From Victivallales bacterium (GTDB taxonomy: Bacteria > Verrucomicrobiota > Lentisphaeria > Victivallales > GWF2-50-93), in NCBI GenBank assembly GCA_049297395.1, contig JBAQUG010000497.1, positions 5,516 through 69,515 on the forward strand: a DNA stretch of 64,000 nt, in the 5' to 3' direction. Of this stretch, positions 795 through 62,430 are shown one piece after another (position 1 is the first letter of the stretch; the number at the start of each line of letters is the position of its first letter). The notes under the pieces were generated by a model. The model did no database searches and was not told the origin of the DNA. It saw only the letters and a program-made list of their open reading frames with translations. Made by a program: the position numbers and the translations under genes.

Positions 795-1552
795 ACAAAC
801 ATCAATGTGAACACAGACGGCAATTGAAAATTGGCAACACCTTTACCTTGATAGAATTACTCGTCGTAATCGCGATCATCTCCATTCTGGCATCATTGCT
901 CCTGCCGGCGCTCAGCAATGCAAGGGAGGCGGCCAGGGCCAGGCTCTGCATGTCCAACGAAAGACAGATCATGCAGGGATTGTATTTCTATGCGGACGAC
1001 TATAATGAGTTCATGCCGCCCTGCTACTCAGCCAGCTTCGGGGTGGCGGGTTGGCCATCCATAAGATTTTTTGACGGCTGGGTTGCCTGGGCAATGGTCT
1101 ACACAAAAGACTGCACCTTGGAAAATGCCGCCCGCTCGTATGGCTCCGGCGGTACAAAAGGAATATGGGACTGCCCGACAAATCCGTTGCCGTATTGTCA
1201 AAACGGCCTTGCAGGGAACTATGCATATAATCAGGATCTGGGGTATCCCGCTGGTTATGGAGCACCGCTGCGCTGGAAGAATCCTTCGGGTCTCGCAATG
1301 CTGGCCGATGGAGGAAATTATAATTTATACACACCTCCTGCGTATTCTAAAAACTACTGGGAGATAGGGGGCACATTCGCCAGGCAGTGCAACGTGGGGG
1401 TGCTATATGACAGATTCAGGGATGGCTGGCACAGCAGGGGGTACAACATAGGCTTCCTGGACATGCATGCAGAATGGGAGAAGCTCGCTGATAACAAGGA
1501 GATCCCTGGAAAGTATTTCCCTTCATGGCTCCATGACCATGGGCAGTGGTAG
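791..1552 (+). CDS. Prepilin-type N-terminal cleavage/methylation domain protein (DUF1559 / H-X9-DG pseudopilin-like), P1
   Basis: The N-terminus [46 protein letters not shown] is a class III signal/methylation motif. The C-terminal [17 protein letters not shown] resembles the H-X9-DG box (DM variant). An in-frame TTG at 824 would give a shorter [13 protein letters not shown] leader. The gene leads the + strand CAZyme operon. Confidence 0.85.
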
Positions 1553-1575: not shown

Positions 1576-1676
1576 TGTAATGCACATGAAATGCTCTGTA
1601 ATATAGCAATTAGATAACATGAGGTGCAATACGGACAATGAAAACATATGATTATTGCAAAACACAGGAGTGCACG

Positions 1677-19000: not shown

Positions 19001-20272
19001 GAGAATTGCAGCCCTGACTTTCGTGCCGCGCGCCCAGAACAGAACTTTTTCGGTGTGCATCTTATTGGAAATATCGAAGCAGTCGCCTGTCTCATATCCG
19101 CCATAGAGCTGGCATGACATGTCTTTCTCCGGTTCAGCCACGAAGACATTCACTGTCCTGCGGTCGTCGTCAGGATAATCCACTTCCAGAAGGTAGAGTT
19201 CCTGTTTTTTTGGCACGTCGATGTCGTATGCGAACCCGGAATTGTATTTCAGGTGGCCGGGCAGTTTCGGGGGTGACGGAAGTTTGACATCGGTATTGTC
19301 TCCGCCTTCGCGGTATTCGCCGGCTGCGGATTTCGCAATCCGCGTAGGTTCGGTGACTTCCCAGAATTTCTCGTTCGCCTTTATTTCCTTGCCCATGTCC
19401 TTCTGGGTGACGCAGTCGATGTCATGGATCAATGTCTTGCGCATCTCTTTTGGAAATCCGGCATTTTTAGTGTCGACAACTGCGAACTGTCCGGCGCGGA
19501 ATTCGCTCGGATGCAGTAATTTCCCATCGACTTTCGCCATGACCTGGAAGACGCCTTCCTTCGGGCATTCGATCTTGACCGTCTTCGTCTTGGGTTCATC
19601 TCTGGAGGAAAACTCCACATCGCCTGCCGCCTGCAGCGGGGCTTCAGGAGCCAGAAGATTTTTCAAAAAGAGTTCGTAGCGTGTACTGGCTCCTGGCATG
19701 CCGCCTGTCACTTTGATCTTGTAGCTTTCGCCGGCACGGATTACATCATATCCGTCGCGTTCAGCCGAGATGGAGCATTCAGGCCTGCCCTTTGCTGGAA
19801 CCAGTTCAAATGCGGCCGGCAGGATACCGGGGAATCCGAGACGGCGCAGACGCAGGACATGCTTGCCTTTTGTCAGCCAGAGATTGCATTCCTTGTACCA
19901 GCGTCCCTGTTCGCCCGGACGGGCCTTTGCTTCGATGTCGTCATTCTCGGAGATCACAAAGTTGAGGACAGTTTTCCCGTCGACAAATAGATCGCGTGGC
20001 CACCCGGGGACACCATCTTTTTCCAGCAGCTCGAACCAGCCGTCGGCAGGGATGTCGATGTCGTATTCCGCCCAGCCGCACATCTCGTTTATGATGCCGT
20101 TCTTCTTCTTCTCCGCCAGCTTCGCCTCGTCATTCGAATACCATTTGATCAAAGACCGGTCGAAACTCCATACGTCCCGTTTGACTACGGGTTTTGACTC
20201 TGTGCCCTGCGAATAAACGGCGGAGAGCGACATGAAAGCCAGAACCGCGATCATCAATGCTTTTTTCATCAT
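16079..20272 (-). CDS. Giant secreted GH-like protein, paralog A2
   Basis: The ORF runs to 20317. The start at 20272 (MMKKALMIAVLAFMSLSAVYSQG) is chosen because its first 8 codons match the A3 start almost base for base (ATGATGAAAAAAGCATTGATGATCGC versus ATGATAAAAAAAGCGTTGATGATCGC). Family blocks: FAYDIDVPKKQELYLLEVDYPDDDRR, NWGYGDWDMSQFQKDSGIKVPGEAGSPDRFEKRFDFL, FYFYAVNR. Confidence 0.85.
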   Translation of the reverse strand: MMKKALMIAVLAFMSLSAVYSQGTESKPVVKRDVWSFDRSLIKWYSNDEAKLAEKKKNGIINEMCGWAEYDIDIPADGWFELLEKDGVPGWPRDLFVDGKTVLNFVISENDDIEAKARPGEQGRWYKECNLWLTKGKHVLRLRRLGFPGILPAAFELVPAKGRPECSISAERDGYDVIRAGESYKIKVTGGMPGASTRYELFLKNLLAPEAPLQAAGDVEFSSRDEPKTKTVKIECPKEGVFQVMAKVDGKLLHPSEFRAGQFAVVDTKNAGFPKEMRKTLIHDIDCVTQKDMGKEIKANEKFWEVTEPTRIAKSAAGEYREGGDNTDVKLPSPPKLPGHLKYNSGFAYDIDVPKKQELYLLEVDYPDDDRRTVNVFVAEPEKDMSCQLYGGYETGDCFDISNKMHTEKVLFWARGTKVRAAILSKNPGMRAAASKIRVYKIEDGLVGGPATRPEGRLMIHWMEEPTRWLQHAVPPKELTPIAKDFLAIERYLRLCQYHGFNAVSPTEAIYQGLTYNSSELEGWFVQPYDAPRIVALMCEKFGMKYIPELHLSGQAWFNAEIVDKLDPKMEDLYIWSRLGTSSMGGGGSWFCSTWNPLHPAIQGKYIKIVGELSDKLADTPAFSGVSLRLMSWVWQGWNGLPSLNWGYGDWDMSQFQKDSGIKVPGEAGSPDRFEKRFDFLTSKEMLPKWIAWRNGRMLDYYRQIRDRIRKANPEAVLYLPYYGDAAQGMDLTFGSYFGTEKGALLEIGLDLAKLADEPGISVYPSGTYGRRDHGDLVADAGVSDSLSSPDKFALGFGRERAFGFGNAYFEDQQQVHTSAFGLPELKDTRTDSGNNGAAEGAGRNALEKLACAVAEQDSGALRQGGMGYTFGRPDEYREWLAEFEQLPKEPFIPFEAARDPVAVWFKKCDDGFYFYAVNRESYEIPVSIQLKDCGKILSLGTGEETAAPEGKINMTLKPFQIRAFKTKRGAAIAGVEIAVPAEKISLVRDRIAFCQQLADEISSGSRKNDVAEKDREAFLSAVNDAWNAAEQHHWWRARTVLSSTPVIKVFNLLAQWPEGQLHRRLGIGALKTENRGGTDIAAALMLTADDLEKTLRDASKIKKIDSSTYNPEWLFTKILKAENGIFEANIPVPVDGRYRLSIGHCSDKPCAMMVSLGTVNMPVIAVCRTPGNPEKTVFPVVSLKAGTALLSIKGQSPFGIYGVTLQPEYHPIPSPNWMTVGPFPTKWYSGAKGELIKEAVSRNDIPADKADMKAEFDVGGKKLKWEYSDEVRGGIPHMNENAGLSFLYRAKVQDRGVCHAVTYINSPDERDAEILIGCDWWANAWLNGEQLKTDRKPELVADDGCFFNGWRPLPAKVHLKKGQNILIVKSHGGTVANWFTCYISDPGDISISNNIK
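16082..16621 (-). other. Shared C-terminal jelly-roll module, copy in A2
   Basis: WMTVGPFPTKW...SPDERDAEILIGCDWWANAWLNGE...FNGW...HLKKGQNILIVKSHGGTVANWFTCYISDPGD. Confidence 0.7.
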
Positions 20273-20355
20273 CGTCATAATCCCTTCGTTTCTGTTAATA
20301 TATTTTTTTAAAAACATCTTTGCTTAATCGAACCATTCAATGATGCGTCTCTTCG

Positions 20356-39265: not shown

Positions 39266-39378
39266 ACATACCTCCCTTATGTAATCAGAATATAAGCCAA
39301 GTTCCATATAAAACCCATACTCCATCTATATCTTTTCTTTGCGCTTCTGTTTTCATATTGAAAGATTTACAATTTGAT

Positions 39379-42837: not shown

Positions 42838-43167
42838 GGGAAAGATGCTTGGCAGCAACTCGATTACTAAACAGTTTAGAGATAGTTGATCTTCTGAAAT
42901 ATTTTGTCGAGCAGGCATATGACATCTTCCTGTTTTATACTTTCTTTGTATTCCCGTTGCCTTGACAATATTATGAGGCCTGTACCCTGTCAAGACAAAA
43001 TTTTGATTTAGTGGATTACTAAAGGTTACATTATGGTGACATATCATGAATATGTTCCATGCATATGATTGACATGATGCATATGGCAGTTATCGTAATA
43101 ATCAAAGATGAGAAGCACTATTCCCCTTCAGGGCGAATATCATTAAGGAATAAGGAGAGCTTCGATT

Positions 43168-45910: not shown

Positions 45911-48900
45911 TTACTTTATCATGAACTTTACGATCCGCTGGTTGCCGACATCCGCGACATAAAGCCACTCAATTCCTTTTGCGTCCTTGATCGCGGCAAT
46001 CCCGGTCGGTTGGCGGAATGACATGCCGTCACGGTCGTCGAGAGTTCCAAACTTGCCATAGGACTTGAGGAATTTACCTTTTGAGTCAAGACAGACGAAA
46101 TTGTTTCTGGCGGGTTCGGTCAGCCAGACATGTCCGCTGCTGTCGGTGGTGATCCCGATTGGCTGGCGGAACGGGGTTGAACCATGTCCCTGGTGCGGAT
46201 CGAATTTGTCCTGCCAGATGATTTCAGCTTTTTGAGAGAGGCAGGTGACCGAGCGTGTTCCGCCGCCTGCAATGAATATTTTCCCGTCGGTTCCCAGGTG
46301 GAGTCCGTAATCGCCCCATGGCAGGGTGCCGCCGAGATGGATCAGTTTTTCCCTCTTTCCGTCGTCAGGGGAGTATCGGAAAATTGTCACAGTCGGTCCG
46401 CCAGCTTTAACTTCCGGATCGTCGAGCCGGAGGATCAGTCGCCCGTCGGATTCGACCTCGAGATCTGTAGGCGAGTACGACCAGTTGTCAAAGAGCGGCT
46501 TGTCTCCATTGAGCATTTTGGGTTTGTCCCAGCCGGTTGCGGTTTTCGCGCAGCGGTATACGTTCATGCCTCGGCTGTTGCTGTAGAAACCGAAATTGGA
46601 TGCCAGGTAGATTGAACCGTCCGGCGCCAGCGCGAACGACTGGATATCGGCATTAGGAAGCCCGGGATCATAGGCGATCTCGATGGTATCCGGAGTTCCA
46701 GGAGTGAGACGCATCAGCTTGTTGTGCGCCAGATAGTAGATCTTTCCACCGTTCACCTTGAGCTGGGTGGTTCCCTTCAAACTTTGTGTCTGCATTGATG
46801 AAAGTCCCGGGATCAGATCGCGTCTCGCTTCCAGTCCATTCCTGAGGATGAAATATTCCCTTGCGACAACACCGTTTGTTTCCTGCTGGAATCCTATGGC
46901 GATGCCAAGATCAGGGCTGATCGCAAGCGCGGTTGCCTTGGCTGGAAGGTTGAAGGACCATGATTTTGCGAATTTCGCATCTGATCCTCTATCAAAGCAG
47001 AGTATGGCCGTACCGTCGGAGTTCGTTGCAAGCATCTTCGAGCCGTCAGGAAAAACTGCGAGCTTCCCAAGCTTTTTAAATTCGTCCGAGGTAAGGGATT
47101 CAATTTCCTTGCCTGATGACGAAAACACTTTGATCCCGTCTGCCGAGACGAGGTAGATGTTGTCCTTTGCGTCCACTGCGCCGCCGGAGGCGGTGGTGTC
47201 CGCCAGCTTGTTGCTCGGCGTGCCGTTGACAGAATAGTCGAATGACATTGTGCCGTCTTCACGGAATTTATAGACGCCTTTCATGTCCGCAGGTTCGGGG
47301 CAGGTGAGATATGGATTGCCCCATTTGTCTATTGCCAGCAGCGAACTTCGCATTCCCGGCACCGGGAATCCGTATCCCCATTCGAGACGGAGAAGCCTTC
47401 CGGTGTTCGTCTCGTAGAGTGCGGGCTGGGTATGCCATGACATCGCGGCCAGACGCTTGTCCGGAGTGAGCCTCAGTGACCATGTGTCGAGGTACCTGGG
47501 ATTGGCAAGCTGCGCCCATCTCGGATCTCCTTCATCAGGCGTGTGGGCAAGATTGAGGGAGAGGCATTTCAGGTAGTTGCCATCCCTGTCGAAAAGCATT
47601 ACCTGCTCATGCGACGCAGCCCAGAGATTGCTTTCGGTGTCATATGCCAGATCGGTGATCGTTGAAAGGCGGCCGCGCACGTCGCCGATTATCGACTGCA
47701 AACCAAGGAAATCGACTTTGGGCGCATCCTTCACATCGGTGAAACCGTGCGGGATCTTGCGTTCGAGAAGGCCGCTCGGGAATCTGCCGTTGATGTCGTA
47801 TACTCTGACCAATGATGAGCGCTCGAGATTTCCCTTCGCCTGCCAGAACCGTCCTTCGCCGTAGGCCCTGATGGATTCATTCAGCAGGCGCATCGCCTCG
47901 CGGGCGTCGGGTTCGGAAAGTTCCGGAGCAGTCCGGCGGTAACGCAGATCATTGAGGAGATCCTTGGCGAACGTGATCATCGGGAGGAGTTTAGCCGATA
48001 TTTCCGGAGGCACCTCAACAGAACAGTTCTTAATCGAGACATTGCCTCCTTCAGCGCGGAACGAGCGCAGCATGAACGGTTCGAGTTCGAATGACAATGC
48101 CTTTCCGTCCTTGAGGGTGAGAGGTTCGCCGCCTGCGGCAGGGACGACTTTGGAGGCGTTTGCCGTTGAAAGTTCCACCTTCACATTTTTCGGCAGCCTG
48201 TTGACAGCATAGAAATAGAATCCGGGACTGATTTTCAGTTTGTCGGCCTCCTCCTTCTTCACTTCGCGTGTCCAGACTGCGACCGGATCGCGCGCCTTTT
48301 CGAAAGGAATGAACTTCAATGCTGGCAGCGCGCGGAATTCGCGGAGGAACGGGCTTAAAACCGGAGGTGTGCCGAACATCCATCCGTTTCCGCCGTTCAC
48401 AAAGAAGCTGGTGTCGGAATCCGCCATGGCGATGGCGTAGAGCTCGCGTTCATTTATGCCGCTAGGAGAGCTGCAGTCGAAGGCGCAGTAGCCTTTTTTG
48501 CCGCCCAGCTTTTCCCAGTCCAGGTTGTCATTGACCTCGTAGTAGTCGGTATAGATTGAAAAACCGCGGTCACCGAGTCGGGCGACAGTTTTGACATCCT
48601 CCGCATAGAGAGGATCGGACTTTTTGGCATCGCCGACCGGGGTTGAATATCGGCGCCCGTATCCGCCGCCCTGCACGATTACAAATCCGTCTTCGGCCGC
48701 ATAGCGGCGGTAGTCCATCCCGATCTCACGCATCTGTCCGAGTATGTCCTGGCTGTAGGCCTCTTTTGGATCCGGACCGAAATAGTTGAGGAACAGTTTT
48801 GCATCCGGTTTAGCCTGCCTGATCCTGTCGCGTAGCCTGCAATGGTAGTTAAATATTTTGTCGCAGCGCCAGCCGATCCACTTTTCACGCGCCGTTCCGG

Positions 48901-50983
48901 TTAGGAAGTCGAAGCGCTGGCGGAATCTTTTCGGATCTCCCGCCTTGCCGGGAACCTTCATGCCCGTATCCTTTTCAAACTGCGCAACTGTCCAGTCGTC
49001 ATATCCCCAGTTCAGGCTGGGCAGGGCGTTCCATCCCTGCCACTGCCAGGAGAGCATGAGGCGCGTAGAAATTCCCGCGAATGATTCGCAGTCACCGAGG
49101 CGGTCGGCTAGTTCGCCAAAGACGGAAATGTACATGTCCTGGATTTTAGGATGCAGGGCGTTGTAGCCGGCGGCCTTCCACCCGAACGAAGTCCCGCCAT
49201 CGCGGTTACGGATGATGTATTCCTCGGCAGTCGGCGCAATATGCAGTATCGATTCCTTCTTTCCATCATTTTCCTTTTCTTCATTCCATACGCCCATGAT
49301 GTGCTTGTCAAACCAGGCCTGTCCGCTGAGATGGAATTCCGCGACATATTTGCCGTGGTATTTTTCGGCCATCAGCGCGACCACCCTTGTCATGTCGTAC
49401 GATTCGCTGAAATATCCGTCGAGTATCTTGCTGGGATAGGCGTTGTACTGGTAGACGTTCGCGGTCGGGAACATCAGGTTGGCGCCGAGATACCTGTTCC
49501 ATTGGCCCCAGCGGTCGAGAGTGGTCAGATGTTCAATGAGCCCTGCTGGTCCTTCTCCCGCCTTTGCGCCGAAGAAGCGCATCCATCTGGGTCCCTCCTC
49601 GAAATAGAATCCCATGACGCGGCCGCTGGCAGGACCTGATGGACCGTCTGGCAGCGCGGAGTCGACCCTGTCGATCTGTATCTTTGCGGCGGCCGCCCTG
49701 TATCCAGGCACCAGGTTCAGGACCGCGACTACGATTCCTTCTTTCTTAAGAGGATAGAAAAACGCCTCGTGGGTCAGCAGGGAATTTGTCAGAGGATATT
49801 GGTCTCCGGTTTCCACGCCACCGGTCAAAGTGATGCCATTTCTGCCATCGGCGCCATCGTTGGTCCAGAATCCCATGCTGCGCCGCTCGTCGTCGGGATA
49901 AGTGACTCTCAAACGGTAAAGATGGTCCGTGTCCGGCAGGTCAAACTTATAGGAGAATCCATCGGTAGCCCAGTGATCCGACGTTCCTTTCCCAGACGAT
50001 TCACGGTACTTGCCAAATGGCGATTCGACAATTCTGCTTTCGCCGTCCTTTTCAAAAAATGTCTTGTCCTTTTCGACGGACTTTCCGTTGATGGTCTGGT
50101 TCACGCAGTCGATTTCAACAACCGTAGAAGTCTTTAGTTCGGCGGCCGGCGCCGGCGGATTCTTCGTGTCGATCACGATGAACATCCCGGCCTTGAGATC
50201 GGCGGGCCGTGAAAGTTTCTCCCCGGACTTGATGAGGAGCTGGAAGACTCCCTGCTGTGGGAACTCTATTTCAACTTCCTTTGAGATCGGTTCGGCGCTT
50301 ACGGGGAACTCCACTGTTCCGCATGGAGTGATCTCCTTGGTGTTCTCATTGCGGACGACGAGATCGTAGGATGCAGGGACCGTGGTTCCGCCGGAAAACG
50401 AAATCCTGATCTTTGTGCCGGCGCGGACGACGTTGTGGCCGACACCGGTTGCGCGGATGCAGCCTGCAGCTTCACCGTCCGTGCTTCTAAGCTCCCACTT
50501 GCTCGGCAGTGCTCCTGGAAAGCCCAGGCGGCGGATCCGGAGGGTATGCTTCCCTTCCTTTAGATAGAGGTTGGCCTCCTTCCACCAGGTGCCTTTTTCC
50601 CCTTTCCGGGATGCCAGGTCACTGTCTTCCTTATGCGAATATGTCAGGAGGAAAAGAATCCTGCCATCGAGGTAGATATCCCGGCTCCAGCCTGAGACGC
50701 CGTCTTTCTCCATCAGTTCGAACCAGCCGGATTTGGCGATAGTGAAATCATATTCGACCCAGCCGCCGGCGCCAAGGATGGTTCCCGCAACCTTCTGATC
50801 CTCCATCGACGAGATCCAGCCCTTCACTCCTGGCTTGAGCAATGCTGCAGGCCATTCCAGTTCCGAACGGTCATAGCTCCAGACATCGCGGGTGATGACA
50901 GGTTTTGTCTCAGCACCCTGAGGGTATACGGCAGATGCTGAAAGGAACACTGATGCAGCGATCATCAACGCTTTTTTTATCAT
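45911..50983 (-). CDS. Giant secreted GH-like protein, paralog A3, with a C-terminal NHL beta-propeller in place of the jelly-roll module
   Basis: MIKKALMIAASVFLSASAVYPQG is the signal peptide. Family blocks: FSYKFDLPDTDHLYRLRVTYPDDERR, NWGYDDWTVAQFEKDTGMKVPGKAGDPKRFRQRFDFL, FYFYAVNR. The C-terminus ..IEWLYVADVGNQRIVKFMIK is NHL-type. The ATG lies 1 nt after the GH29 stop. Confidence 0.85.
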   Translation of the reverse strand: MIKKALMIAASVFLSASAVYPQGAETKPVITRDVWSYDRSELEWPAALLKPGVKGWISSMEDQKVAGTILGAGGWVEYDFTIAKSGWFELMEKDGVSGWSRDIYLDGRILFLLTYSHKEDSDLASRKGEKGTWWKEANLYLKEGKHTLRIRRLGFPGALPSKWELRSTDGEAAGCIRATGVGHNVVRAGTKIRISFSGGTTVPASYDLVVRNENTKEITPCGTVEFPVSAEPISKEVEIEFPQQGVFQLLIKSGEKLSRPADLKAGMFIVIDTKNPPAPAAELKTSTVVEIDCVNQTINGKSVEKDKTFFEKDGESRIVESPFGKYRESSGKGTSDHWATDGFSYKFDLPDTDHLYRLRVTYPDDERRSMGFWTNDGADGRNGITLTGGVETGDQYPLTNSLLTHEAFFYPLKKEGIVVAVLNLVPGYRAAAAKIQIDRVDSALPDGPSGPASGRVMGFYFEEGPRWMRFFGAKAGEGPAGLIEHLTTLDRWGQWNRYLGANLMFPTANVYQYNAYPSKILDGYFSESYDMTRVVALMAEKYHGKYVAEFHLSGQAWFDKHIMGVWNEEKENDGKKESILHIAPTAEEYIIRNRDGGTSFGWKAAGYNALHPKIQDMYISVFGELADRLGDCESFAGISTRLMLSWQWQGWNALPSLNWGYDDWTVAQFEKDTGMKVPGKAGDPKRFRQRFDFLTGTAREKWIGWRCDKIFNYHCRLRDRIRQAKPDAKLFLNYFGPDPKEAYSQDILGQMREIGMDYRRYAAEDGFVIVQGGGYGRRYSTPVGDAKKSDPLYAEDVKTVARLGDRGFSIYTDYYEVNDNLDWEKLGGKKGYCAFDCSSPSGINERELYAIAMADSDTSFFVNGGNGWMFGTPPVLSPFLREFRALPALKFIPFEKARDPVAVWTREVKKEEADKLKISPGFYFYAVNRLPKNVKVELSTANASKVVPAAGGEPLTLKDGKALSFELEPFMLRSFRAEGGNVSIKNCSVEVPPEISAKLLPMITFAKDLLNDLRYRRTAPELSEPDAREAMRLLNESIRAYGEGRFWQAKGNLERSSLVRVYDINGRFPSGLLERKIPHGFTDVKDAPKVDFLGLQSIIGDVRGRLSTITDLAYDTESNLWAASHEQVMLFDRDGNYLKCLSLNLAHTPDEGDPRWAQLANPRYLDTWSLRLTPDKRLAAMSWHTQPALYETNTGRLLRLEWGYGFPVPGMRSSLLAIDKWGNPYLTCPEPADMKGVYKFREDGTMSFDYSVNGTPSNKLADTTASGGAVDAKDNIYLVSADGIKVFSSSGKEIESLTSDEFKKLGKLAVFPDGSKMLATNSDGTAILCFDRGSDAKFAKSWSFNLPAKATALAISPDLGIAIGFQQETNGVVAREYFILRNGLEARRDLIPGLSSMQTQSLKGTTQLKVNGGKIYYLAHNKLMRLTPGTPDTIEIAYDPGLPNADIQSFALAPDGSIYLASNFGFYSNSRGMNVYRCAKTATGWDKPKMLNGDKPLFDNWSYSPTDLEVESDGRLILRLDDPEVKAGGPTVTIFRYSPDDGKREKLIHLGGTLPWGDYGLHLGTDGKIFIAGGGTRSVTCLSQKAEIIWQDKFDPHQGHGSTPFRQPIGITTDSSGHVWLTEPARNNFVCLDSKGKFLKSYGKFGTLDDRDGMSFRQPTGIAAIKDAKGIEWLYVADVGNQRIVKFMIK
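45914..47722 (-). other. NHL/beta-propeller region of A3 (last 603 aa), homologous to the free-standing protein 5814-7484
   Basis: LQSIIGDVRGR aligns with FQKIIGDMRGR at the start. At the end, FRQPIGITTDSSGHVWLTEPARNNFVCLDSKGKFL..FRQPTGIAA..WLYVADVGNQRIVKF aligns with FGAPRATAIDSHGRIWVADTAKNKVFCLSPRGKLL..FDNPSAVAI..FLYVGDSGNQRIVKY. Confidence 0.75.
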
Positions 50984-50984
50984 A

Positions 50985-53219
50985 TCACCGGGCTTTCATC
51001 TTTATGTCTTCCATGTCGTTTATCCGGCATGTGAACCAGTTGGCACAGCTGCCGCGATGACATTTGACGAGGAGGATATTGCTTCCTTTCCTGAGGTGTA
51101 TTTCCGCCGGGCCGGGCTTCCATCCGTTGAACTGCGAACCGTCCTCGGCCATGGCCGAAGCTGGACGGCATCCGGCGAGGGGACTGCCATTGATCCAGGC
51201 TTTCGCCCACCAGTCGCAGCCGATAAGAAGGAGAGCCTTGCATTCCTTTGAGCTTATAATTTCCGTCCTGGCATAGCATACCCCGCTGTGCCTGGAACCG
51301 CAGCGGTATGGAAAGTCGACACCAATGTCCGAATGTTCGCCTTCGCGAAGCTTGGAATGCTGCCACCTGACTTTATCTTTTCCAATTCCCTGATAGGATT
51401 TTTTCAAGTCGAATTCCTTCTCCGGGGGGAAAACCGTGGACATTGCCTTGCGAACTTCGCAGACAGGAGCCTGCGGCCCGAATGCCGTGGGGAACGGTCC
51501 GATGGTCAACCAGTTCTCTGAAGGAATGGGTTTCCAATGGGGCGTGACTTTCAGAGCGTAGATTCCGAGTTTCTCAATTGATTTTATCAACAGCCTGTGA
51601 TGTCCATGTGAAAGGTGCTTGTTCTCCAGGATTACAGTATCAGGGCATCCTCCGTAACGCAGGAGGCCCACAGGTTTCATCAGATCACCGTCAAGACGTA
51701 TCTCAATGGAAGATGCTTTTTTCGTGATCAGTCCGACGGCTATGTCGTAGACCCCGTCCGCCGGCACTGCAATATTCAAAATTGGAAACAGGCTTTCCGG
51801 CAATGAAAAAACAGTCCGTCCAGTCCAGCCCGGACACCATTTGGACGAGTCGGAGCCGACAAGGGTTCTGGAATTTTGGATGAGAATTTTAAGCGGCCTC
51901 CCCTCTATGACAGGAGGTTCGGGCGGTGAAAAACGGTCGCTGTCCTGGCCGAGTACCGGAGCCTCCCCCTTTTTCATGCGGATACCGTTCCTGGCATGGC
52001 CTAGCGTATCGGCGGGGATGCCGAAAGTCTTTGATTTAATGGAAAGAACCTCAGGTAGATTGTCATGGGAGATCTTAGGCAGGCCGCCAACATCTATTGT
52101 CATGTCCGATTCCGTTTTTATTTTCAGTTCTGAATAGCCTTCCAGGATGCAGGCTTCGAAATTCCTGGAATTGAGACCTTCCAGCCGGATGTTTTTTCCT
52201 GTGTTTCTGGAAATGAAGAAGAAGGCCTTCTGTCCTTTTGATGTTACCGGACCACAGGCGTGGTTGGCTTCGCTGTATGCGGTGCGCTGCGTGCCGTAAA
52301 TGGCGTCGCCGTTTGTCTTGAGCCATTTCCCTATTGTCTCGAGTCGTTTTGTAAATTCGGGCTGGATCGTGCCATCGGCCTTTGGGCCGACATTGAGGAG
52401 GAGGTTTCCTTCAAAGCGTGCCGCGTAGATGAGGCAGTCAATTACTTCCTGCGGGGATTTGAAATTCCTGTCCGAAGGGTTGTATCCCCAGCTTTGATTG
52501 AGGGTCATGCATGCCTCCCAGCGCTGTCCGGCCGCCGGTGCGGTGACGTGCTGCTCTGGCGTGATGAAATCCTCATGAAGACCCGAGCGATCATTGATCA
52601 ATATGTCGGGCTGTAGACGGCGGACCATTGCATTCAGCTCCCTGGAGCGCCAGTATTTCGCCTGCATTTTGTCGTCCTGCATCCCCGGTACGACTGCGCC
52701 GTCATACCAGAGCATGTCTATCCTGCCGTAATTGCCCATGATTTCACGGACCTGTGCATGGGATTCCTTCACCATTGCCGCCCAGCCCTTGGGATCGGCT
52801 GTGGGTCCAGTAAGGATTGCAGGCCATTGCCAGCTCATGACAGAATGATACAGTCCGATCCGGAGCCCGGCCCTGCGGCATGCGTCGACGAATTCCCTCA
52901 CGAAGTCGCGTCCCGCCGCAGTTTTTACGGAATTGTAGTCGCTCACCTTGCTGTCATACATTGCGAATCCGTCATGATGCCTGGTAGTGAATACCATGTA
53001 CTTCGCACCGGCCCTTACTGCGAGATCCGCCCATTCTTCGGCATTGAACTTATCGGGGGGATTGAACTGTTCTGTGAGCCTGTTGTATTCCGGCTTCGGG
53101 ATCTTCTCCTTGAACATCACCCATTCCCCGCGCCCCCATATCGAGTAGATCCCCCAGTGTACGAATATTCCGAATTTTGCTTCATTGAACCAAGACTGTC
53201 CCGTCTTTCGATTTTCCAT
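50985..53219 (-). CDS. GH29 alpha-L-fucosidase with beta-sandwich linker and the shared C-terminal jelly-roll module; no N-terminal signal peptide
   Basis: WFNEAKFGIFVHWGIYSIWGRGEWVM, MVFTTRHHDGFAMYDSKVSDYNS and IDMLWYDGA are canonical GH29 blocks. The N-terminus MENRKTGQSW lacks a hydrophobic segment. Confidence 0.85.
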   Translation of the reverse strand: MENRKTGQSWFNEAKFGIFVHWGIYSIWGRGEWVMFKEKIPKPEYNRLTEQFNPPDKFNAEEWADLAVRAGAKYMVFTTRHHDGFAMYDSKVSDYNSVKTAAGRDFVREFVDACRRAGLRIGLYHSVMSWQWPAILTGPTADPKGWAAMVKESHAQVREIMGNYGRIDMLWYDGAVVPGMQDDKMQAKYWRSRELNAMVRRLQPDILINDRSGLHEDFITPEQHVTAPAAGQRWEACMTLNQSWGYNPSDRNFKSPQEVIDCLIYAARFEGNLLLNVGPKADGTIQPEFTKRLETIGKWLKTNGDAIYGTQRTAYSEANHACGPVTSKGQKAFFFISRNTGKNIRLEGLNSRNFEACILEGYSELKIKTESDMTIDVGGLPKISHDNLPEVLSIKSKTFGIPADTLGHARNGIRMKKGEAPVLGQDSDRFSPPEPPVIEGRPLKILIQNSRTLVGSDSSKWCPGWTGRTVFSLPESLFPILNIAVPADGVYDIAVGLITKKASSIEIRLDGDLMKPVGLLRYGGCPDTVILENKHLSHGHHRLLIKSIEKLGIYALKVTPHWKPIPSENWLTIGPFPTAFGPQAPVCEVRKAMSTVFPPEKEFDLKKSYQGIGKDKVRWQHSKLREGEHSDIGVDFPYRCGSRHSGVCYARTEIISSKECKALLLIGCDWWAKAWINGSPLAGCRPASAMAEDGSQFNGWKPGPAEIHLRKGSNILLVKCHRGSCANWFTCRINDMEDIKMKAR
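50988..51512 (-). other. Shared C-terminal jelly-roll module, copy in GH29
   Basis: WLTIGPFPTAF...FPPEKEFDLKKSYQGIGKDKVRW...CKALLLIGCDWWAKAWINGS...FNGW...HLRKGSNILLVKCHRGSCANWFTCRINDMED. Confidence 0.7.
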
Positions 53220-53250: not shown

Positions 53251-53976
53251 TTAAAATTCCGCTGCACCTGCATCTTTTATAAGCCATTTCGACGCCTGGG
53301 GAAATGGATACGCTTCTGGTAGGCCAGGAAACACACTGGCTCCAAGAGCCTGGGCATGACCGTCAAAGAAAAGGGTGTTGCTTCTGCCTCCGAACCATAC
53401 GCCGTTTGATGCCTGCCTGCCGCCGTGACGAAGTGAAATATTGCCGGTAATGTAGAACTCCGTCCACTTGAGACGAAGCTGGCCTGCGTCATTGCTGTCC
53501 ATGAAATTGATTTTGGAGCTTGGCGATTTGAACTCCGAGAGCTTGCAGGTTATTCCAAGGTTGGGGGAATCATCATTGCTGTTGACGTGTGCATTCTGCC
53601 CCCAGGAAGGATGGTTTCCGTTGAAAATCCCGGTCGGATTGTTCGGGCACACGAGAAAAATCCCCGCAGGCTGCTTGTCCATCGGTTTGCAGCTCTTGGA
53701 GGAGTCGAAGCCCAGGTATTCGGCGATCCTGACATATTCAGTGCAGCCCGCCTGGCTGTAAGGAAGGGGAACGTCTTTCCTGTCGGCAATATATTCGTTC
53801 CAGTCCATTATATACATTGCCTCAGCCGCGCCAACCGACTTGAGCTTGTTGATGCAGTCGATCTGCTTGGCCAGTTCCTTTGCATTCTTCAGCGCGGGCA
53901 GCAGCATCGCCGCAAGGATTGCGATGATCGCAATAACCACAAGCAATTCGATCAGTGTGAACAGATGATTTTTCAT
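53251..53976 (-). CDS. Prepilin-type / DUF1559 pseudopilin-like protein, P4
   Basis: [48 protein letters not shown] starts at ATG 53976. The ORF-track start at 54048 is a TTG. C-terminal [13 protein letters not shown] is a DGH box. GH29 starts 31 nt after the stop. Confidence 0.85.
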
Positions 53977-54087
53977 GGCAGCACCTTGCACGTTTATTAT
54001 ACTCCTTTGCCCTGTCGGAAAACTGCCATCGTGCCCGGATGGATTCAAAACCTGAACCTGCCGCTGCCCGGCTGCGATGACAATGGC

Positions 54088-58170: not shown

Positions 58171-61100
58171 TCAAGGTTTCGGCGAAAGGGTGATTCCCTT
58201 CTCGTCGGTGATATATGCCGAGAACGCGCTGCCGCCGCTGCCGCCCTGCTGCTTCACAAGAAGCGTGTTCACACCCTTCTTGAGCTTCAGGACACCCCAG
58301 TGGACGGCGGACCAGGTTGTGAAATCCGAACCGCAGTCGGCCTTGACTTCCGGCTTTACGTTTGTGGTGATCGGCTCGCCGTTGAGGAAGGCCTTCGCCC
58401 ACCAGTCAACGCCCATATAGAAAAGCGCGGTCCTGTCTTCATTGCTGTTTATAAAGGTCACCGCATAGTTGAAGTCCGCACTTGAAGACTTGGTCCTGAC
58501 AGGCATGTCCACCCCCAGGTCCCCGATTTTTCCGACGATGCTGCTGGACGACGTGCTCCAGCGGCGTTCGCTTCCGTCAGCATCCTTGTATGTTGCCGAA
58601 AGGTCGATCTTCCCTTCAGGCGGATATTTCTGGTCCATCCCCTTTTTCACGAATCTGCCCTCAGGTCCGCGCCCGGCCATGTGAAGCCCCCAGTAGCTGG
58701 CGAAAGGTCCGACAGTGGACCATGCCATGTCCGGCATGGGGTTCAGGACAGGAAGAATCTTAAGCCCGTAGACGCCGAACGATCCGTCGCGGCGGATGGC
58801 CAGGCGGTTCTTCCCCTTCTTCAACGACACGCGCGGGAACGCCGCCGTTTCCGGCATTCCCGGCTGGATCGTGATGCACGGGGCGGCAAGGCTGACACCG
58901 TTTATGGAGGCGGTTGTGACGCCCATGCCTTCGGCAACATGCCCCAGGTGGAATATGTAGTCGCCATCGGCAGGGATGTCCAGATCGAATTCAATCGTTC
59001 CATTTTTAGATTTCAAAACTTCATGGCCGTCCCATTCCGCGTTGTAGGTGGTAGATGGAACTTTTTCAGGAACTGTTCCAGCCGCCATCTTCATGAGCCC
59101 GGCGGCGGCGGTTACGCCCTCATCGGTTTCCCAGTGATCGCCTTTCCTAGGGGAAAGGAGACCTGGGAATTTCGTTATCACCTGTCCTTCCGGCATTGCA
59201 GAGATCTTTTCGTAGACCAGCATCATCGGCGCCATCGACAAGGCGGTCCTGCTGCGCCAGACATGGCCGAGGCGGTATGCCTCCCAGGCCTGTTCGAGAT
59301 TCTTCAGATAGGCCGCGCGGAGCTTTTCGCTGACGTCATTCCTGCGAATTCCGCAGGTTATGGATTCCGCGATCTGCTGTGAGAAAGCGAGGCGTTCATG
59401 CAGCGCCTTCATGTTTTCTTCCGGCACAGTCGCCTTCGCCTCTGCAATTTTGGCGTCTTTTCCGGTCTTGAATGAACGCAGGGCGTACGGCTGGAGAGTC
59501 AGGTTGAGGCATCCTTTTTCCAGCGATGTCTTTTTCCCGTTCACGGTCGATGTCACGCTGTCTGCGCCGGTCAATGTTATTTTCACCTCAACCGGGAACC
59601 GCTCGCGGTTTACAGCGTAGAAGAAATAGTTATTAGTTATCAGTGATTGGTTATTTGTATTTTGCTGGCCACCGTCCACCGGCAACTGGTCACTCTTCCC
59701 GCTGTGCCATACCGCGACAGGGTCGCGTGCTGATTCGACGCTTTCAAATGGCACCGCCGGTATCGATTCGAATTCCGAGAACCATTCGTTCCATAGGCCG
59801 GGATCTCCGAACATGTCGGAATTCCCGCCGTCGCGCAGTATCGCCGAATCCTGTTCCGCCAGGACTACCGCGAATTTCTCAAGGCTGTTCCTGCCTGCCG
59901 CCAGGACCGCGGAACAGTAGTAGGGCATATCGCCTTTCTTGACGCCTTTGACTCCGAGCTTGTCGCAGGGCCAGTATGTCGCCAGTTCGTGATAGGTCAT
60001 GTAGGCCGCGAAGCTGCGGACCTTTCCGAAACCCGACGCCACGTTGTCAGGATCGAAGAATCCGTCGTAGATAGCCTGTTCCGAGGAAGTGGTGTTCCTT
60101 GAACCGTAGCGCGACACGGCCATAACCGCGATGCCGTCCGTCTTCTTCAGGCGATCCAGGTCGATACCCATCTCGTAGAAGCGGCTTTTCTTGCCGTCAG
60201 GGATCTTGAAACACGGATCGCAGTCGCCGTCGCCGGCAATTATGAAGTTGACATCCTTCCTTCCATCCTGGATCCGGTCGCGGATCCTGAGATGGTAGTC
60301 CATCGTCTTGTCGCTGCGCCATTTCATCCATTTGCCCTTCACGTCCTTGGACACGAGGAAGTCGAAGCGCTTTACAAAACGGTCGGGATCGTCGTTTGAA
60401 ACAGGAACCTTCACGCCGGTTTCCTTTTCAAACTGCTTCATTGTCCAGTCTCCATAGCCCCAGTGCAGTCCGGGTATGTTGAAGTCGCCCCTGAACAGCC
60501 ATGCATCTGCGCGTACGCAGATTCCTTCGAATGCCGGTGAGTCACGGAGCTTGTCGGCCAGTTCGCCCATGGCGTTCACCCATCGTGTCTGGATGGCGGG
60601 ATGGAAGGTGTTGAGATCGCATGCTGCGAATCCAGTACCCTTCATGGCGCCGGTGCAGCTTACCGACCGTACATCCTCGGGATTCTCCACTTCCTTCGGC
60701 AGGACTACCATGTTGAGGTACCACTGCGTCGGGAAGACTTCCGGCATGTAGCGCATGCCATATTTTTCGCATATCAGCGCGAGAAGCCTGGTCTCGTCGA
60801 AATCGCTGGTGAGGAAGCCGTCGAGATATTGGGACCTGTAGAACGCCTCCTGGTAGCCGACTCCGAGACCTGTTATTCCGTTGAAGCCGAAATACCGGAC
60901 AAGCCGCGCCCATCGGTCAAGTCCTATGAACGCCCTGACGGACTGCGGAGCCCCCCTGTGGGTGAGATGGATGTTGGTCAGGAACCTCCAGCTGAGGGCC
61001 TCCTCATACCAGTGGATGGCGGAACGTCCATTCTTCCATTCGACTTTTGTCGCGGGAAGCTCGCCGTCGAAGCGGTAGATGTTTATCTTCGACGCCGCGG

Positions 61101-62430
61101 CCCTGTGCCCGACCTGCTGGCTGATCACGCAGATCTGGATATTGTCCGAGGCGGCCCAGAAGACACTCTTCATATTCCTTGATTCATTTGATATGGGGAA
61201 TATTCCTCCTGTCTCGTAGGATTTGCTGTATGAACTGCTGCCTTCGACAAAGCCTCCGGTCTTCCTGTCGATCTGTATCAGGGGAACTGTAACCGAACGG
61301 CGCATGTCGTCCGGGAATTCCAGTTCTATGAGATAGGGTACGCCAGCTTCGGGAAGATCGAAACGATATGCAAATCCTGAATATGATCTGGGAATTTCCG
61401 TCGGGGTCAGAGGTACTTCGACATCGGCTCCGTAGCAGTTGTTGCTTTCACGGTATTTGCCGGCTTTCGACTCCGAAACCCGCGTGGCGCCGTTGCATTC
61501 CCAGTAGTTTTCACCGGTTACTACAGGCTTGCCGTCAATCGTATTCGCAACGCAGTCGATCACCCTCACAAGCGACGGTTTCCCACCCGGCCTCAAAGCT
61601 GCGTTTACATCGACAACAACAAATTCGCCGATCCTGAACTCGCTCGGACGCAGAAATTTTCCATTAGTCTCGGCCAGCAGTTCGAAGACCCCTTCCGCAG
61701 GACATTGAATTTCAACGGTCTTCTCAACGGGTTCAGCGCTTGGCTCGAAATTGACTGTCACGCCAGTAGCTTCAGGGGCGGCTTTCGGATCGAGCAGATT
61801 TGCCCTTAGCAGTTTGTAACTGGCTGCCGAATTTGTTCCTCCTCCCAGGACTTTGATCTTCAGTTTTTCTCCGGCCCTGACGACATCGATAATAGTTTTG
61901 GAGGCTGATACCGAAGCTTCCGGACGCTTTTCAGAAGATTTGAATTCCCACGCATCAAAGATTCCGTGCGGAAACGAGATCCTGCCTACGCGGCGGATGT
62001 TCATTTCGTGCTTTCCCTTTTTAAGGAACAGGTTTGCGGTTTTCGCAGTTTCCTTTGATATGAAATCCCCTTTGTCTCCCGAGCGTAGTTCGCCGGAACG
62101 GTATATGAAATTTCCATCTATGACAAGGTCATGCCCCATCTGGCCGAGAGGATTTTTCAGGAATAGCTCATACCATCCGTCGGCCGGAATATCGATATTG
62201 TAGGTGGTGTTCCAACCCTGCGGAGCCCCTTCCTTCGGCCAGGGCTGATCCCGCTTCGGTTCGCTGGTGAACGGACGTCCATCGCCCCACTCAACCTTTG
62301 TGAAGTCCCAGAAGCTCCCTGACATGCCGGATGCTGGAGATTCCTTCGGTTCGGCGGAGGCTTTTGATATGAGGACGGGAATTATAAACGCACCTACGAA
62401 AGCCGCAAGCATGAACTTATCCATTGGCAT
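58171..62430 (-). CDS. Giant secreted GH-like protein, paralog A4
   Basis: MPMDKFMLAAFVGAFIIPVLISKASAEP is the signal peptide. AAGGAG Shine-Dalgarno. Family blocks: FAYRFDLPEAGVPYLIELEFPDDMRR, AAASKINIYRF, HWGYGDWTMKQFEKETGVKVPVSNDDPDRFVKRFDFL, YFFYAVNR. Confidence 0.85.
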   Translation of the reverse strand: MPMDKFMLAAFVGAFIIPVLISKASAEPKESPASGMSGSFWDFTKVEWGDGRPFTSEPKRDQPWPKEGAPQGWNTTYNIDIPADGWYELFLKNPLGQMGHDLVIDGNFIYRSGELRSGDKGDFISKETAKTANLFLKKGKHEMNIRRVGRISFPHGIFDAWEFKSSEKRPEASVSASKTIIDVVRAGEKLKIKVLGGGTNSAASYKLLRANLLDPKAAPEATGVTVNFEPSAEPVEKTVEIQCPAEGVFELLAETNGKFLRPSEFRIGEFVVVDVNAALRPGGKPSLVRVIDCVANTIDGKPVVTGENYWECNGATRVSESKAGKYRESNNCYGADVEVPLTPTEIPRSYSGFAYRFDLPEAGVPYLIELEFPDDMRRSVTVPLIQIDRKTGGFVEGSSSYSKSYETGGIFPISNESRNMKSVFWAASDNIQICVISQQVGHRAAASKINIYRFDGELPATKVEWKNGRSAIHWYEEALSWRFLTNIHLTHRGAPQSVRAFIGLDRWARLVRYFGFNGITGLGVGYQEAFYRSQYLDGFLTSDFDETRLLALICEKYGMRYMPEVFPTQWYLNMVVLPKEVENPEDVRSVSCTGAMKGTGFAACDLNTFHPAIQTRWVNAMGELADKLRDSPAFEGICVRADAWLFRGDFNIPGLHWGYGDWTMKQFEKETGVKVPVSNDDPDRFVKRFDFLVSKDVKGKWMKWRSDKTMDYHLRIRDRIQDGRKDVNFIIAGDGDCDPCFKIPDGKKSRFYEMGIDLDRLKKTDGIAVMAVSRYGSRNTTSSEQAIYDGFFDPDNVASGFGKVRSFAAYMTYHELATYWPCDKLGVKGVKKGDMPYYCSAVLAAGRNSLEKFAVVLAEQDSAILRDGGNSDMFGDPGLWNEWFSEFESIPAVPFESVESARDPVAVWHSGKSDQLPVDGGQQNTNNQSLITNNYFFYAVNRERFPVEVKITLTGADSVTSTVNGKKTSLEKGCLNLTLQPYALRSFKTGKDAKIAEAKATVPEENMKALHERLAFSQQIAESITCGIRRNDVSEKLRAAYLKNLEQAWEAYRLGHVWRSRTALSMAPMMLVYEKISAMPEGQVITKFPGLLSPRKGDHWETDEGVTAAAGLMKMAAGTVPEKVPSTTYNAEWDGHEVLKSKNGTIEFDLDIPADGDYIFHLGHVAEGMGVTTASINGVSLAAPCITIQPGMPETAAFPRVSLKKGKNRLAIRRDGSFGVYGLKILPVLNPMPDMAWSTVGPFASYWGLHMAGRGPEGRFVKKGMDQKYPPEGKIDLSATYKDADGSERRWSTSSSSIVGKIGDLGVDMPVRTKSSSADFNYAVTFINSNEDRTALFYMGVDWWAKAFLNGEPITTNVKPEVKADCGSDFTTWSAVHWGVLKLKKGVNTLLVKQQGGSGGSAFSAYITDEKGITLSPKP
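58174..58722 (-). other. Shared C-terminal jelly-roll module, copy in A4
   Basis: WSTVGPFASYW...YPPEGKIDLSATYKDADGSERRW...INSNEDRTALFYMGVDWWAKAFLNGE...LKKGVNTLLVKQQGGSGGSAFSAYITD. Confidence 0.7.

What the first reader, a model, noticed from the sequence alone, without database searches (positions are those of the whole stretch)
45914..47722. Gene fusion/fission: the NHL propeller is a separate gene after A1 but fused to the C-terminus of A3
The last 603 aa of A3 are colinear with the free-standing secreted NHL protein 5814-7484. At the start, LQSIIGDVRGR aligns with FQKIIGDMRGR. At the end, WLYVADVGNQRIVKF aligns with FLYVGDSGNQRIVKY, with many blocks between. The free-standing gene starts 3 nt after the A1 stop codon.

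In A3 the propeller replaces the second jelly-roll and the shared C-terminal module found in A1, A2 and A4. This Rosetta-stone pattern argues that the propeller and the A-type enzyme act together physically.
Basis: seen in the sequence. Interest (0 to 1): 0.6.

Follow-up and report, generated by a model that had tools for sequence, protein, structure and literature searches.

The report
Enzyme with fused or separate propeller partner
A large secreted sugar-degrading enzyme in this Victivallales genome carries a double beta-propeller as its own tail in one copy (A3) and as a separate neighbouring gene in another (A1). The same pairing recurs across four bacterial phyla, so the two uncharacterised parts almost certainly work together.

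Summary
The last ~611 aa of A3 (window 45914-47746, minus strand) are homologous and colinear with the free-standing secreted protein 5814-7484. An HMM of the free-standing family aligns to A3 over 420 of 549 positions in one domain (134 bits). Blade-order permutations give 63±14 bits (0/200 reach the observed), and generic NHL proteins give only short repeat hits.

It is a tandem NHL-type beta-propeller (AF2 pLDDT 91). It sits where A1, A2 and A4 carry a ~300-aa C-terminal module.

The Rosetta-stone reading is supported and extended:
- 8 of 10 free-standing propeller loci lie directly beside an A1-type gene, once in reversed order.
- About 40 protein clusters in Verrucomicrobiota, Armatimonadota and Lentisphaerota share the A3 fused architecture.
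- A second, independent fusion exists in Planctomycetia (L007, 1610 aa).
- Trees favour fusion as the derived state, not fission.

Physical contact is inferred, not shown. The evidence is AF2 pTM 0.90 for core plus propeller and the same junction in both fusions.

The most likely role is a non-catalytic substrate-binding or positioning partner of a divergent GHL10-like hydrolase acting on fucose-containing glycans. Every member is annotated "hypothetical". Interest is moderate.

The parts
45914..47746 (-). A3 C-terminal tandem beta-propeller region (aa 1080-1690).
   Evidence: It is colinear with the free-standing family HMM. The AF2 model is all-beta from model residue ~600 to the end, with pLDDT mostly >90. 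Pfam NHL scores 27.5 bits against a cut-off of 20.
47747..50983 (-). A3 signal peptide, N-terminal beta domains, GHL10-like TIM-barrel core, beta-sandwich and helical bundle (aa 1-1079).
   Evidence: It is colinear with A1 aa 14-1066 at 31% identity. The Pfam GHL10 hit is weak, 18.9 bits, below the cut-off. AF2 secondary structure matches this domain order.
5814..7484 (+). Free-standing secreted tandem propeller gene (556 aa; NCBI locus tag WAX69_22710).
   Evidence: It founds a tight family of ~25 clusters of 536-575 aa. AF2 gives pLDDT 91.2 and pTM 0.88 with ~42-45 strands. Pfam NHL scores 55 bits.
1638..4862 (+). A1 signal peptide, N-terminal domains and GHL10-like core (aa 1-1075).
   Evidence: Pfam GHL10 scores 42.6 bits against a cut-off of 27.9. 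It aligns to A3 aa 1-1078.
4863..5810 (+). A1 C-terminal ~300-aa module ('Cmod': second jelly-roll plus the shared module). It occupies the position taken by the propeller in A3.
   Evidence: The Cmod HMM hits A1 1076-1379 with 393 bits. BLASTP finds the same module in A2, A4, the GH29 protein and the heparinase-like protein.
50985..53219 (-). GH29 alpha-L-fucosidase carrying Cmod. Its stop codon lies 1 nt from the A3 start codon, so the two genes are in one operon.
   Evidence: Pfam Alpha_L_fucos E=1e-89. Its Cmod aligns to A2 1107-1407 at 37% identity.
53251..54048 (-). Pseudopilin-like N_methyl gene heading the GH29-A3 operon.
   Evidence: Pfam N_methyl. The same gene type heads related operons in L002, L004, L016 and L019.
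791..1552 (+). Pseudopilin-like N_methyl/DUF1559 gene heading the A1-propeller operon.
   Evidence: Pfam N_methyl and SBP_bac_10. L002 has the same order.
16079..20317 (-). A2 (1412 aa): A-type paralogue with Cmod and no adjacent propeller.
58171..62430 (-). A4 (1419 aa): A-type paralogue with Cmod and no adjacent propeller.

Best explanation
The 3' third of A3 encodes a tandem NHL-type beta-propeller. It is a diverged homologue, blade for blade, of a family of ~550-aa secreted propeller proteins, one of which is the gene just downstream of A1.

The propeller is a dedicated partner of the 'A' enzymes. These are large secreted multidomain proteins built around a divergent GHL10-like TIM barrel. 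With A1-clade enzymes the propeller is made as a separate secreted subunit from the same operon. In the A3 clade, and independently in a Planctomycetia lineage, it has been welded to the end of the core's helical bundle. There it displaces the ancestral C-terminal jelly-roll module and the propeller's own signal peptide.

The most likely working model is that the propeller is non-catalytic. It packs rigidly on the core and helps to bind or position a complex, probably fucose-containing and acetylated or sulfated, polysaccharide for the barrel's active site. It would act in cis in A3 and in trans with A1.

Shown: the homology and colinearity, the conserved adjacency, two independent fusions, and a confident AF2 multidomain model.
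Inferred: physical contact between A1 and the free propeller, the binding (non-catalytic) role, and the substrate.
For: Homology and colinearity.

Distinct family: there is a large score gap between the ~25 family members (E<=8e-93) and generic NHL proteins (E>=1e-32).

Conserved adjacency with A1-type genes: 8 of 10 loci, once in reversed order, with gaps of 3, 7 and -4 nt.

Fused family: about 40 clusters in Coraliomargarita, Puniceicoccus, Opitutaceae, Chthoniobacteraceae, Capsulimonadaceae/Armatimonadota and Victivallales.

Second fusion: L007 and P0009. The core groups with the A1 clade at bootstrap 100. The propeller nests in the free-standing clade, which separates from the A3-type clade at bootstrap 100.

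Polarity: in the core tree the lineages carrying Cmod (outgroup paralogue, A1 clade, A2+A4, P0170) are basal to a monophyletic fused clade.

Packing: AF2 of A3 aa 491-1690 gives pLDDT 90.1 and pTM 0.90, with the linker at pLDDT 84-94. This fits rigid packing.

No sign of catalysis: the columns conserved in both propeller families are almost all Gly, Pro, Trp and Asp of the NHL scaffold.

Structural neighbours: the best Foldseek E-values for the A3 model are to the tandem-propeller glycan-sensor domains of Bacteroides BT4663/BT4673.

Substrate context: a GH29 fucosidase is adjacent in the window and in L019, and nearby in L001 and L002.

Co-inheritance: distances of partner pairs correlate at r=0.63 across 7 loci.
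Against: There is no direct evidence of an A1-propeller complex. No multimer model could be run, and no coordinates or PAE were available to inspect the interface.

Two free-standing family loci lack an A-type neighbour: L005 follows a GH2 and L011 has none. A free-standing A3-type propeller, P0193, sits beside a different large secreted protein.

A2 and A4 have no propeller, so it is not required by all A-type enzymes.

Structural similarity to the glycan sensors is weak (TM <=0.25). A catalytic role cannot be excluded from sequence alone.

A1 and its partner differ by 19 points in GC3, so this particular pairing may be recent.

The trees are neighbour-joining only. They are rooted on a distant paralogue, and support at the base of the fused clade is modest (64-94).
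Confidence: 0.6

Rival explanations
1. The propeller is a second enzyme (for example a metal-dependent lyase, lactonase or esterase of the six-bladed propeller superfamily). It would act on the same polysaccharide before or after the A-core. On this reading the fusion reflects pathway coupling, not a binding or positioning role.
For: There are weak Pfam hits to SGL/gluconolactonase and Vgb_lyase and a profile hit to DFPase in the first propeller half. Many six-bladed propellers of this clan are enzymes (general knowledge). Operon neighbours are other degradative enzymes.
Against: No acidic or Asn metal-binding constellation is conserved across the two propeller families; shared columns are scaffold residues. 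The SGL, Vgb_lyase and DFPase hits are below cut-off or fragmentary.
Confidence: 0.2
2. The fusions are neutral consequences of operon adjacency. The two proteins act in the same pathway or compartment but do not contact each other in the split form.
For: Adjacent co-transcribed genes fuse easily by small deletions. Gaps of 3, 7 and -4 nt make that likely. Some propeller genes have other neighbours.
Against: Two independent fusions use the same domain junction and both discard Cmod. The fused form has been kept across phyla. AF2 predicts one rigid body with pTM 0.90. Adjacency survives an order reversal in L004.
Confidence: 0.17
3. The resemblance between the A3 tail and 5814-7484 is only generic NHL-repeat similarity, with no specific common ancestry of the whole domain.
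For: Overall identity is low at 21%. BLASTP aligns only the two ends.
Against: One HMM domain spans 420 positions. Block permutation loses ~70 bits (0/200 reach the observed). Generic NHL proteins never give more than 45 bits in one domain. Basal fused members (Armatimonadota) score higher against the free-standing family HMM, 145-184 bits.
Confidence: 0.02

Closest known systems
NHL-repeat six-bladed beta-propellers (Pfam PF01436; e.g. TRIM71, Brat, Thin, PknD sensor domain)
   Same: The repeat motif (…D..G..WV.D..N.RI..F) is present and above the Pfam cut-off in both proteins. PDB sequence hits are to these proteins.
   Different: Here there are ~11 blades in a tandem arrangement of 550-610 aa. 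Only 2-3 blades are canonical NHL. The protein is secreted and bacterial, and is tied to a glycoside-hydrolase-like enzyme. Foldseek TM to single NHL propellers is <=0.5 on the target side.
Periplasmic tandem-propeller glycan-sensor domains of Bacteroides hybrid two-component systems (BT4663, BT4673; PDB 4a2l, 4a2m, 3ott)
   Same: Both are tandem beta-propellers outside the cytoplasm in polysaccharide-utilisation contexts. They give the best Foldseek E-values for the A3 model (1e-16). There are weak Reg_prop Pfam hits.
   Different: TM-scores are only 0.15-0.25. There is no Y_Y_Y domain and no kinase or regulator. Blade number differs. The resemblance is a lead for a glycan-binding role, not evidence of membership.
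GHL10 / PF02638 enzymes (Cwp19 of C. difficile, PMC5765458 and PMC6016235; DogH of Deinococcus, PMC9967864; E. coli DigH/YddW from my own knowledge)
   Same: The A1 core passes the Pfam GHL10 cut-off. Some A3 orthologues carry precomputed GHL10 hits.
   Different: A-type proteins are 1400-1800 aa with many extra domains. The match covers only part of the barrel (profile positions 99-227 of 311). A3 itself is below the cut-off. No PDB sequence relative of the core was found. The substrate is probably a fucose-containing glycan, not peptidoglycan or starch.
Classical Rosetta-stone (domain-fusion) protein pairs used to predict functional links
   Same: Two separate neighbouring proteins in one lineage match non-overlapping parts of a single polypeptide in another. 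Both states occur in the same genome.
   Different: Here the inference is backed by conserved operon adjacency and by two independent fusions. The fused domain also swaps with a promiscuous accessory module.

Membership tests
NHL repeat beta-propeller (PF01436) | NHL repeat profile match above Pfam's gathering score | tested here: met
   5814-7484 scores 55.1 bits and A3 scores 27.5 bits, against a cut-off of 20.
NHL repeat beta-propeller (PF01436) | Single six-bladed propeller of ~270-300 aa | tested here: not met
   The AF2 model has 42-45 strands over ~530 aa. The best structural matches are tandem propellers: Aip1, PorZ, EML1 and HTCS sensors.
Free-standing ~550-aa secreted propeller family (P0001-P0025) | End-to-end single-domain match to the family HMM (600-880 bits) | tested here: met
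   This applies to 5814-7484: 871 bits over HMM positions 1-548. P0009 and L007 also match, as fused forms.
Free-standing ~550-aa secreted propeller family (P0001-P0025) | The same criterion applied to the A3 tail | tested here: not met
   A3 gives only 151 bits, covering positions 26-83 and 145-548. The propeller tree puts A3-type sequences in a separate sister clade at bootstrap 100. A3's tail is a homologous sister family, not a member.
GHL10 (PF02638) glycoside-hydrolase-like TIM barrel | Profile match above the gathering score | tested here: inconclusive
   A1 scores 42.6 bits (above 27.9) and A3 scores 18.9 bits (below). A2 and A4 have no hit. Several A3 orthologues carry precomputed hits.
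GHL10 (PF02638) glycoside-hydrolase-like TIM barrel | Demonstrated glycosidase or transglycosylase activity and catalytic residues | not testable with these tools
Rosetta-stone fusion pair | Split and fused forms are homologous over non-overlapping parts, and the link is not explained by a promiscuous domain | tested here: met
   In the exhaustive search, most full-length single-stretch hits of the A3-type propeller are on A-type cores or their N-truncated fragments. The exceptions are P0193 and P0201.
Rosetta-stone fusion pair | Physical interaction of the split partners | not testable with these tools
   The only support is indirect: pTM 0.90 for the fused protein.
HTCS periplasmic sensor (Reg_prop x14 + Y_Y_Y) | Two seven-bladed Reg_prop propellers followed by a Y_Y_Y domain | tested here: not met
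   The Reg_prop hit is a 16-aa fragment. There is no Y_Y_Y domain. Foldseek TM is 0.15-0.25.

The most novel reading that the evidence does not exclude
The A-core and the tandem propeller together form a previously undescribed two-part glycanase. A dedicated propeller subunit would supply substrate recognition to a divergent GHL10-like barrel, as a separate secreted subunit or as a fused domain. Characterising it would define a new CAZyme family together with a new class of propeller-type carbohydrate-binding module. The system is possibly linked to the pseudopilin-like N_methyl/DUF1559 proteins that head these operons in PVC bacteria and Armatimonadota.
Probability: 0.3. Interest if true: 0.6.

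Novelty: new variant of a known kind. Interest (0 to 1): 0.42.

Why it matters
The A-type proteins and their propeller partner are among the largest genes in the polysaccharide-degradation loci of Victivallales, Verrucomicrobiota, Planctomycetia and Armatimonadota. Every member found is annotated 'hypothetical'.

The fusion/split pattern gives a concrete, testable pairing: express A1 together with 5814-7484, not alone. It also yields natural single-chain versions (A3, L007) that are convenient for structure determination and assays. It identifies a domain boundary where accessory modules are exchanged.

If the propeller is a glycan-recognition subunit, it would add a new fold class to the carbohydrate-binding modules. 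It might also help explain how these bacteria attack fucose-rich, heavily decorated glycans.

Tried and rejected
- Sequence and profile searches of the PDB found no relative of the A-core.
- NCBIfam has no model for A1, A2 or A3. It gives only sub-threshold ScyF and Vgb hits for the propeller.
- Literature searches for GHL10/PF02638 and for NHL repeats with glycoside hydrolases found nothing on this architecture.
- A mirror-tree comparison of 7 partner pairs gave r=0.63. This shows co-inheritance but cannot separate physical interaction from shared ancestry.
- I considered that the fused ORF might be an assembly artefact. I rejected this because ~40 orthologous clusters share the architecture.
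- I considered fission as the polarity. I rejected it as less parsimonious, because Cmod occupies the same position in the outgroup, the A1 clade, A2/A4 and P0170. The caveat is that Cmod is itself mobile between enzyme classes.
- I recalled the six-bladed fucose-binding lectin propellers (AAL/RSL type). They did not appear among the top 50 Foldseek matches listed for either model, so I dropped the idea.
Full report
**Source and gene map.** The window comes from a MAG annotated 'Victivallales bacterium' (locus tags WAX69_*, contig 69.7 kb). ORF listing and all-against-all BLASTP give four paralogous 'A' proteins:
- A1: 1638-5810 (plus strand), 1390 aa.
- A2: 16079-20317 (minus), 1412 aa.
- A3: 45911-50983 (minus), 1690 aa.
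- A4: 58171-62430 (minus), 1419 aa.
- A distant relative: 24516-29294 (minus), 1592 aa.

A1's core passes the Pfam cut-off for GHL10 (42.6 bits against 27.9). A3's hit is weaker at 18.9 bits. The window is otherwise packed with carbohydrate-active genes: GH29, GH116, GH39-like, GH31, a sulfatase, an acetyl-xylan esterase, a heparinase-like protein, and four pseudopilin-like N_methyl/DUF1559 genes.

**Checking the observation.** The gene 5814-7484 starts 3 nt after the A1 stop codon and encodes a 556-aa protein with a signal peptide.
- BLASTP against A3 aligns its C-terminal 200 aa (29% identity, E=4e-23) and its N-terminal 75 aa (27% identity, E=3e-5), colinearly.
- I built an HMM from 22 free-standing homologues. 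It aligns to A3 as positions 26-83 with aa 1092-1148 and positions 145-548 with aa 1284-1690.
- About 95 generic NHL proteins hit the same HMM only as 5-11 short repeats, with best domain <=45 bits.
- Permuting eleven blade-sized blocks of the A3 tail drops the best domain from 133.8 bits over 420 positions to 62.9±14.3 bits. None of 200 permutations reached the observed value. Residue shuffles score about zero.
- In a joint alignment, 514 residue pairs align at 21% identity. A3 carries a ~70-aa insertion near aa 1170-1240.

The similarity therefore reflects common ancestry of the whole domain in the same blade order. Only about 60 HMM positions (84-144) are not alignable.

A1 and A3 are colinear up to A1 1066 / A3 1078. 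After that point A1, A2 and A4 carry a ~300-aa module ('Cmod', HMM hits). A3 carries the propeller there instead.

**What the domain is.**
- AF2 on the free-standing protein, with its family alignment, gives pLDDT 91.2 and pTM 0.88. The chain is all-beta with 42-45 strands, which means about eleven blades.
- The best Foldseek matches in the PDB are tandem propellers: Aip1, PorZ, EML1, Utp21 and the Bacteroides HTCS sensor domains. TM-scores are <=0.47, so there is no close solved relative.
- Only two or three blades are canonical NHL repeats.
- AF2 on A3 aa 491-1690, with 40 fused orthologues, gives pLDDT 90.1 and pTM 0.90. The order of domains is an alpha/beta barrel, a beta-sandwich, a helical bundle and then the propeller region. 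The connecting segment has pLDDT 84-94.
- A pTM this high for 1200 residues implies a confidently fixed arrangement of core and propeller. This is my inference, because no coordinates or PAE were available.
- The lowest Foldseek E-values for this model are to the heparin-sensing BT4663 and to BT4673 periplasmic tandem propellers, but TM is only 0.15-0.25.

**Distribution of the split form.** The free-standing protein defines a sharply bounded family of about 25 clusters of 536-575 aa (E<=8e-93). Generic NHL proteins follow only at E>=1e-32. I examined the genomic context of ten independent loci.
- An A1-clade gene (42-52% identical to the A1 core, carrying Cmod) lies directly upstream in seven: the window, L001, L002/L003/L009, L008, L010, L012 and the P0003 contig.
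- In L004, a paralogous locus of the same MAG, the order is reversed: propeller first, then the A1-like gene.
- L005 (Kiritimatiellaeota) has a GH2 upstream instead.
- L011 (Planctomycetia) has no A-type gene within 7 kb.

Gaps between the A stop and the propeller start are 3, 7 and -4 nt in three loci. Distances between partner pairs correlate at r=0.63 over 7 loci. That fits co-inheritance but is not evidence of contact.

**Distribution of the fused form.**
- A full-length A3 query finds about 40 clusters of 1614-1807 aa at 98-100% coverage. They occur in Coraliomargarita algicola and C. parva, Puniceicoccus vermicola, Opitutaceae, Chthoniobacteraceae, Capsulimonadaceae/Armatimonadota and Victivallales. 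A 76%-identical paralogue sits in the same MAG. All are annotated 'hypothetical protein'.
- Shorter relatives (1355-1578 aa) keep only the C-terminal half of the propeller region.
- An exhaustive search of 1.84 billion representatives finds the A3-type propeller mostly on A-type cores or their N-truncated fragments. Two exceptions stand out. P0193 is a 640-aa free-standing secreted version located between an N_methyl gene and a different large secreted protein. P0201 is a version with a dockerin-like tail.
- A second kind of fusion exists. P0009 (a fragment) and the complete 1610-aa ORF in L007 (Planctomycetia, 224-kb contig) join an A1-clade core directly to a propeller of the free-standing family. 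They have no Cmod and no signal peptide, and the junction is the same as in A3.

**Polarity.**
- I built a neighbour-joining tree of the core (824 columns, 50 bootstraps, rooted on the 1592-aa paralogue). It places the A1 clade (bootstrap 100), then A2+A4, then P0170, all carrying Cmod, outside a monophyletic propeller-fused clade.
- The P0009 core tail groups with the A1 clade at bootstrap 100.
- The propeller tree splits the free-standing family, with P0009 and L007 nested inside, from the A3-type family at bootstrap 100.
- The simplest reading is that core+Cmod with an adjacent free propeller is ancestral. Two independent fusions then deleted Cmod, the intergenic spacer and the signal peptide.
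- There are caveats. These are NJ trees only. Support at the base of the fused clade is modest (64-94). Cmod is itself mobile: in this window it also sits on the GH29 fucosidase 50985-53219 and on the heparinase-like protein 20356-24198.

**How it most likely works.** The shown facts are homology, operon adjacency, repeated fusion at one junction, secretion signals on both partners and a confident single-body model. They argue that the propeller functions together with the A-core.
- I favour a non-catalytic substrate-binding or positioning role, for two reasons. The columns conserved across both propeller families are scaffold residues with no shared acidic or metal-binding set. The nearest structural analogues by E-value are glycan-sensing tandem propellers.
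- The substrate is probably a fucose-containing, decorated polysaccharide. A GH29 gene ends 1 nt before the A3 start. A GH29 gene follows the fused orthologue in Capsulimonadaceae (L019) and lies near the A1 orthologues in L001 and L002. The Coraliomargarita locus adds deacetylase and SASA-type esterase genes.
- A catalytic propeller (confidence 0.2) and a neutral fusion of operon neighbours (0.17) remain open. Generic repeat similarity is excluded.

**Comparison with known systems.** The proteins are NHL-repeat-containing by Pfam but are not classical six-bladed NHL domains. They resemble HTCS sensor propellers but do not belong with them. The core is a divergent GHL10-like barrel without a solved sequence relative, and NCBIfam has no model for it. 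I found no paper describing this architecture.

**Verdict.** The polarity is resolved in favour of fusion. Physical interaction and biochemical role are still inferred. This is a new variant of a known kind: a modular glycan-degrading enzyme whose accessory module can act in cis or in trans. It is moderately interesting because it supplies a clear experimental handle on a widespread, wholly uncharacterised enzyme family.

Noticed in passing
window 1638-5810 vs 5814-7484: A1 has GC 47.3% and GC3 53.6%. The propeller gene 3 nt downstream has GC 58.0% and GC3 72.5%. A3's core and propeller are compositionally uniform (GC3 66.5 vs 63.2). The A1 gene or its partner may have been replaced by horizontal transfer.
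   Followed up: partly
window 791-1552(+), 29344-29955(-), 38339-39325(-), 53251-54048(-); also L002, L004, L016, L019: A pseudopilin-like gene (N-terminal methylation motif, some with DUF1559/SBP_bac_10) heads the A1, A-like-1592 and GH29-A3 operons; 38339-39325 sits just upstream of the sulfatase gene. The same gene type heads related operons in other phyla. Its role with these enzymes is unknown.
   Followed up: partly
window 14045-16063(-); L002 4951-9993: The 672-aa protein downstream of A2 has a Cmod-like N-terminus. Its C-terminal 350 aa are 29% identical to an extra C-terminal extension of the A1 orthologue in L002/L003/L009. This is a second fusion/split link between an A-type enzyme and a neighbour. 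It has no Pfam match.
   Followed up: no
window 50985-53219(-), 20356-24198(-): The ~300-aa C-terminal module of A1, A2 and A4 is also appended to a GH29 alpha-L-fucosidase and a heparinase II/III-like protein. It is therefore a promiscuous accessory module shared by different enzyme classes in this genome.
   Followed up: partly
L006 3528-8597: The A3 orthologue in another Victivallales MAG (CAYTFM) is split into 808-aa and 875-aa ORFs 15 nt apart, next to a Y1 (IS200/IS605-type) transposase gene. This is either a frameshift/pseudogene or an assembly error. The same MAG also has an A1-to-propeller pair (L008).
   Followed up: no
proteins P0164-P0185: A large group of A-core proteins of 1355-1578 aa, many from Kiritimatiellia, retains only the C-terminal ~290 aa of the propeller region. 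A weak trace of the N-terminal strand remains. This suggests deletion of the first propeller ring in two separate lineages.
   Followed up: no
L005 177-6771; L016 441-3498; P0201: Propeller-family genes occasionally have other partners. One follows a 1558-aa GH2 in a Kiritimatiellaeota MAG. A free-standing A3-type propeller (P0193) precedes a protein resembling the window's CBM9 protein 39379-43047. One version carries a dockerin-like tail.
   Followed up: partly
window 33493-34380(-): A 295-aa Laminin_G_3-like gene has markedly low GC (41.6%, GC3 41.9%) against a window average of about 54%. It may be a recent acquisition.
   Followed up: no
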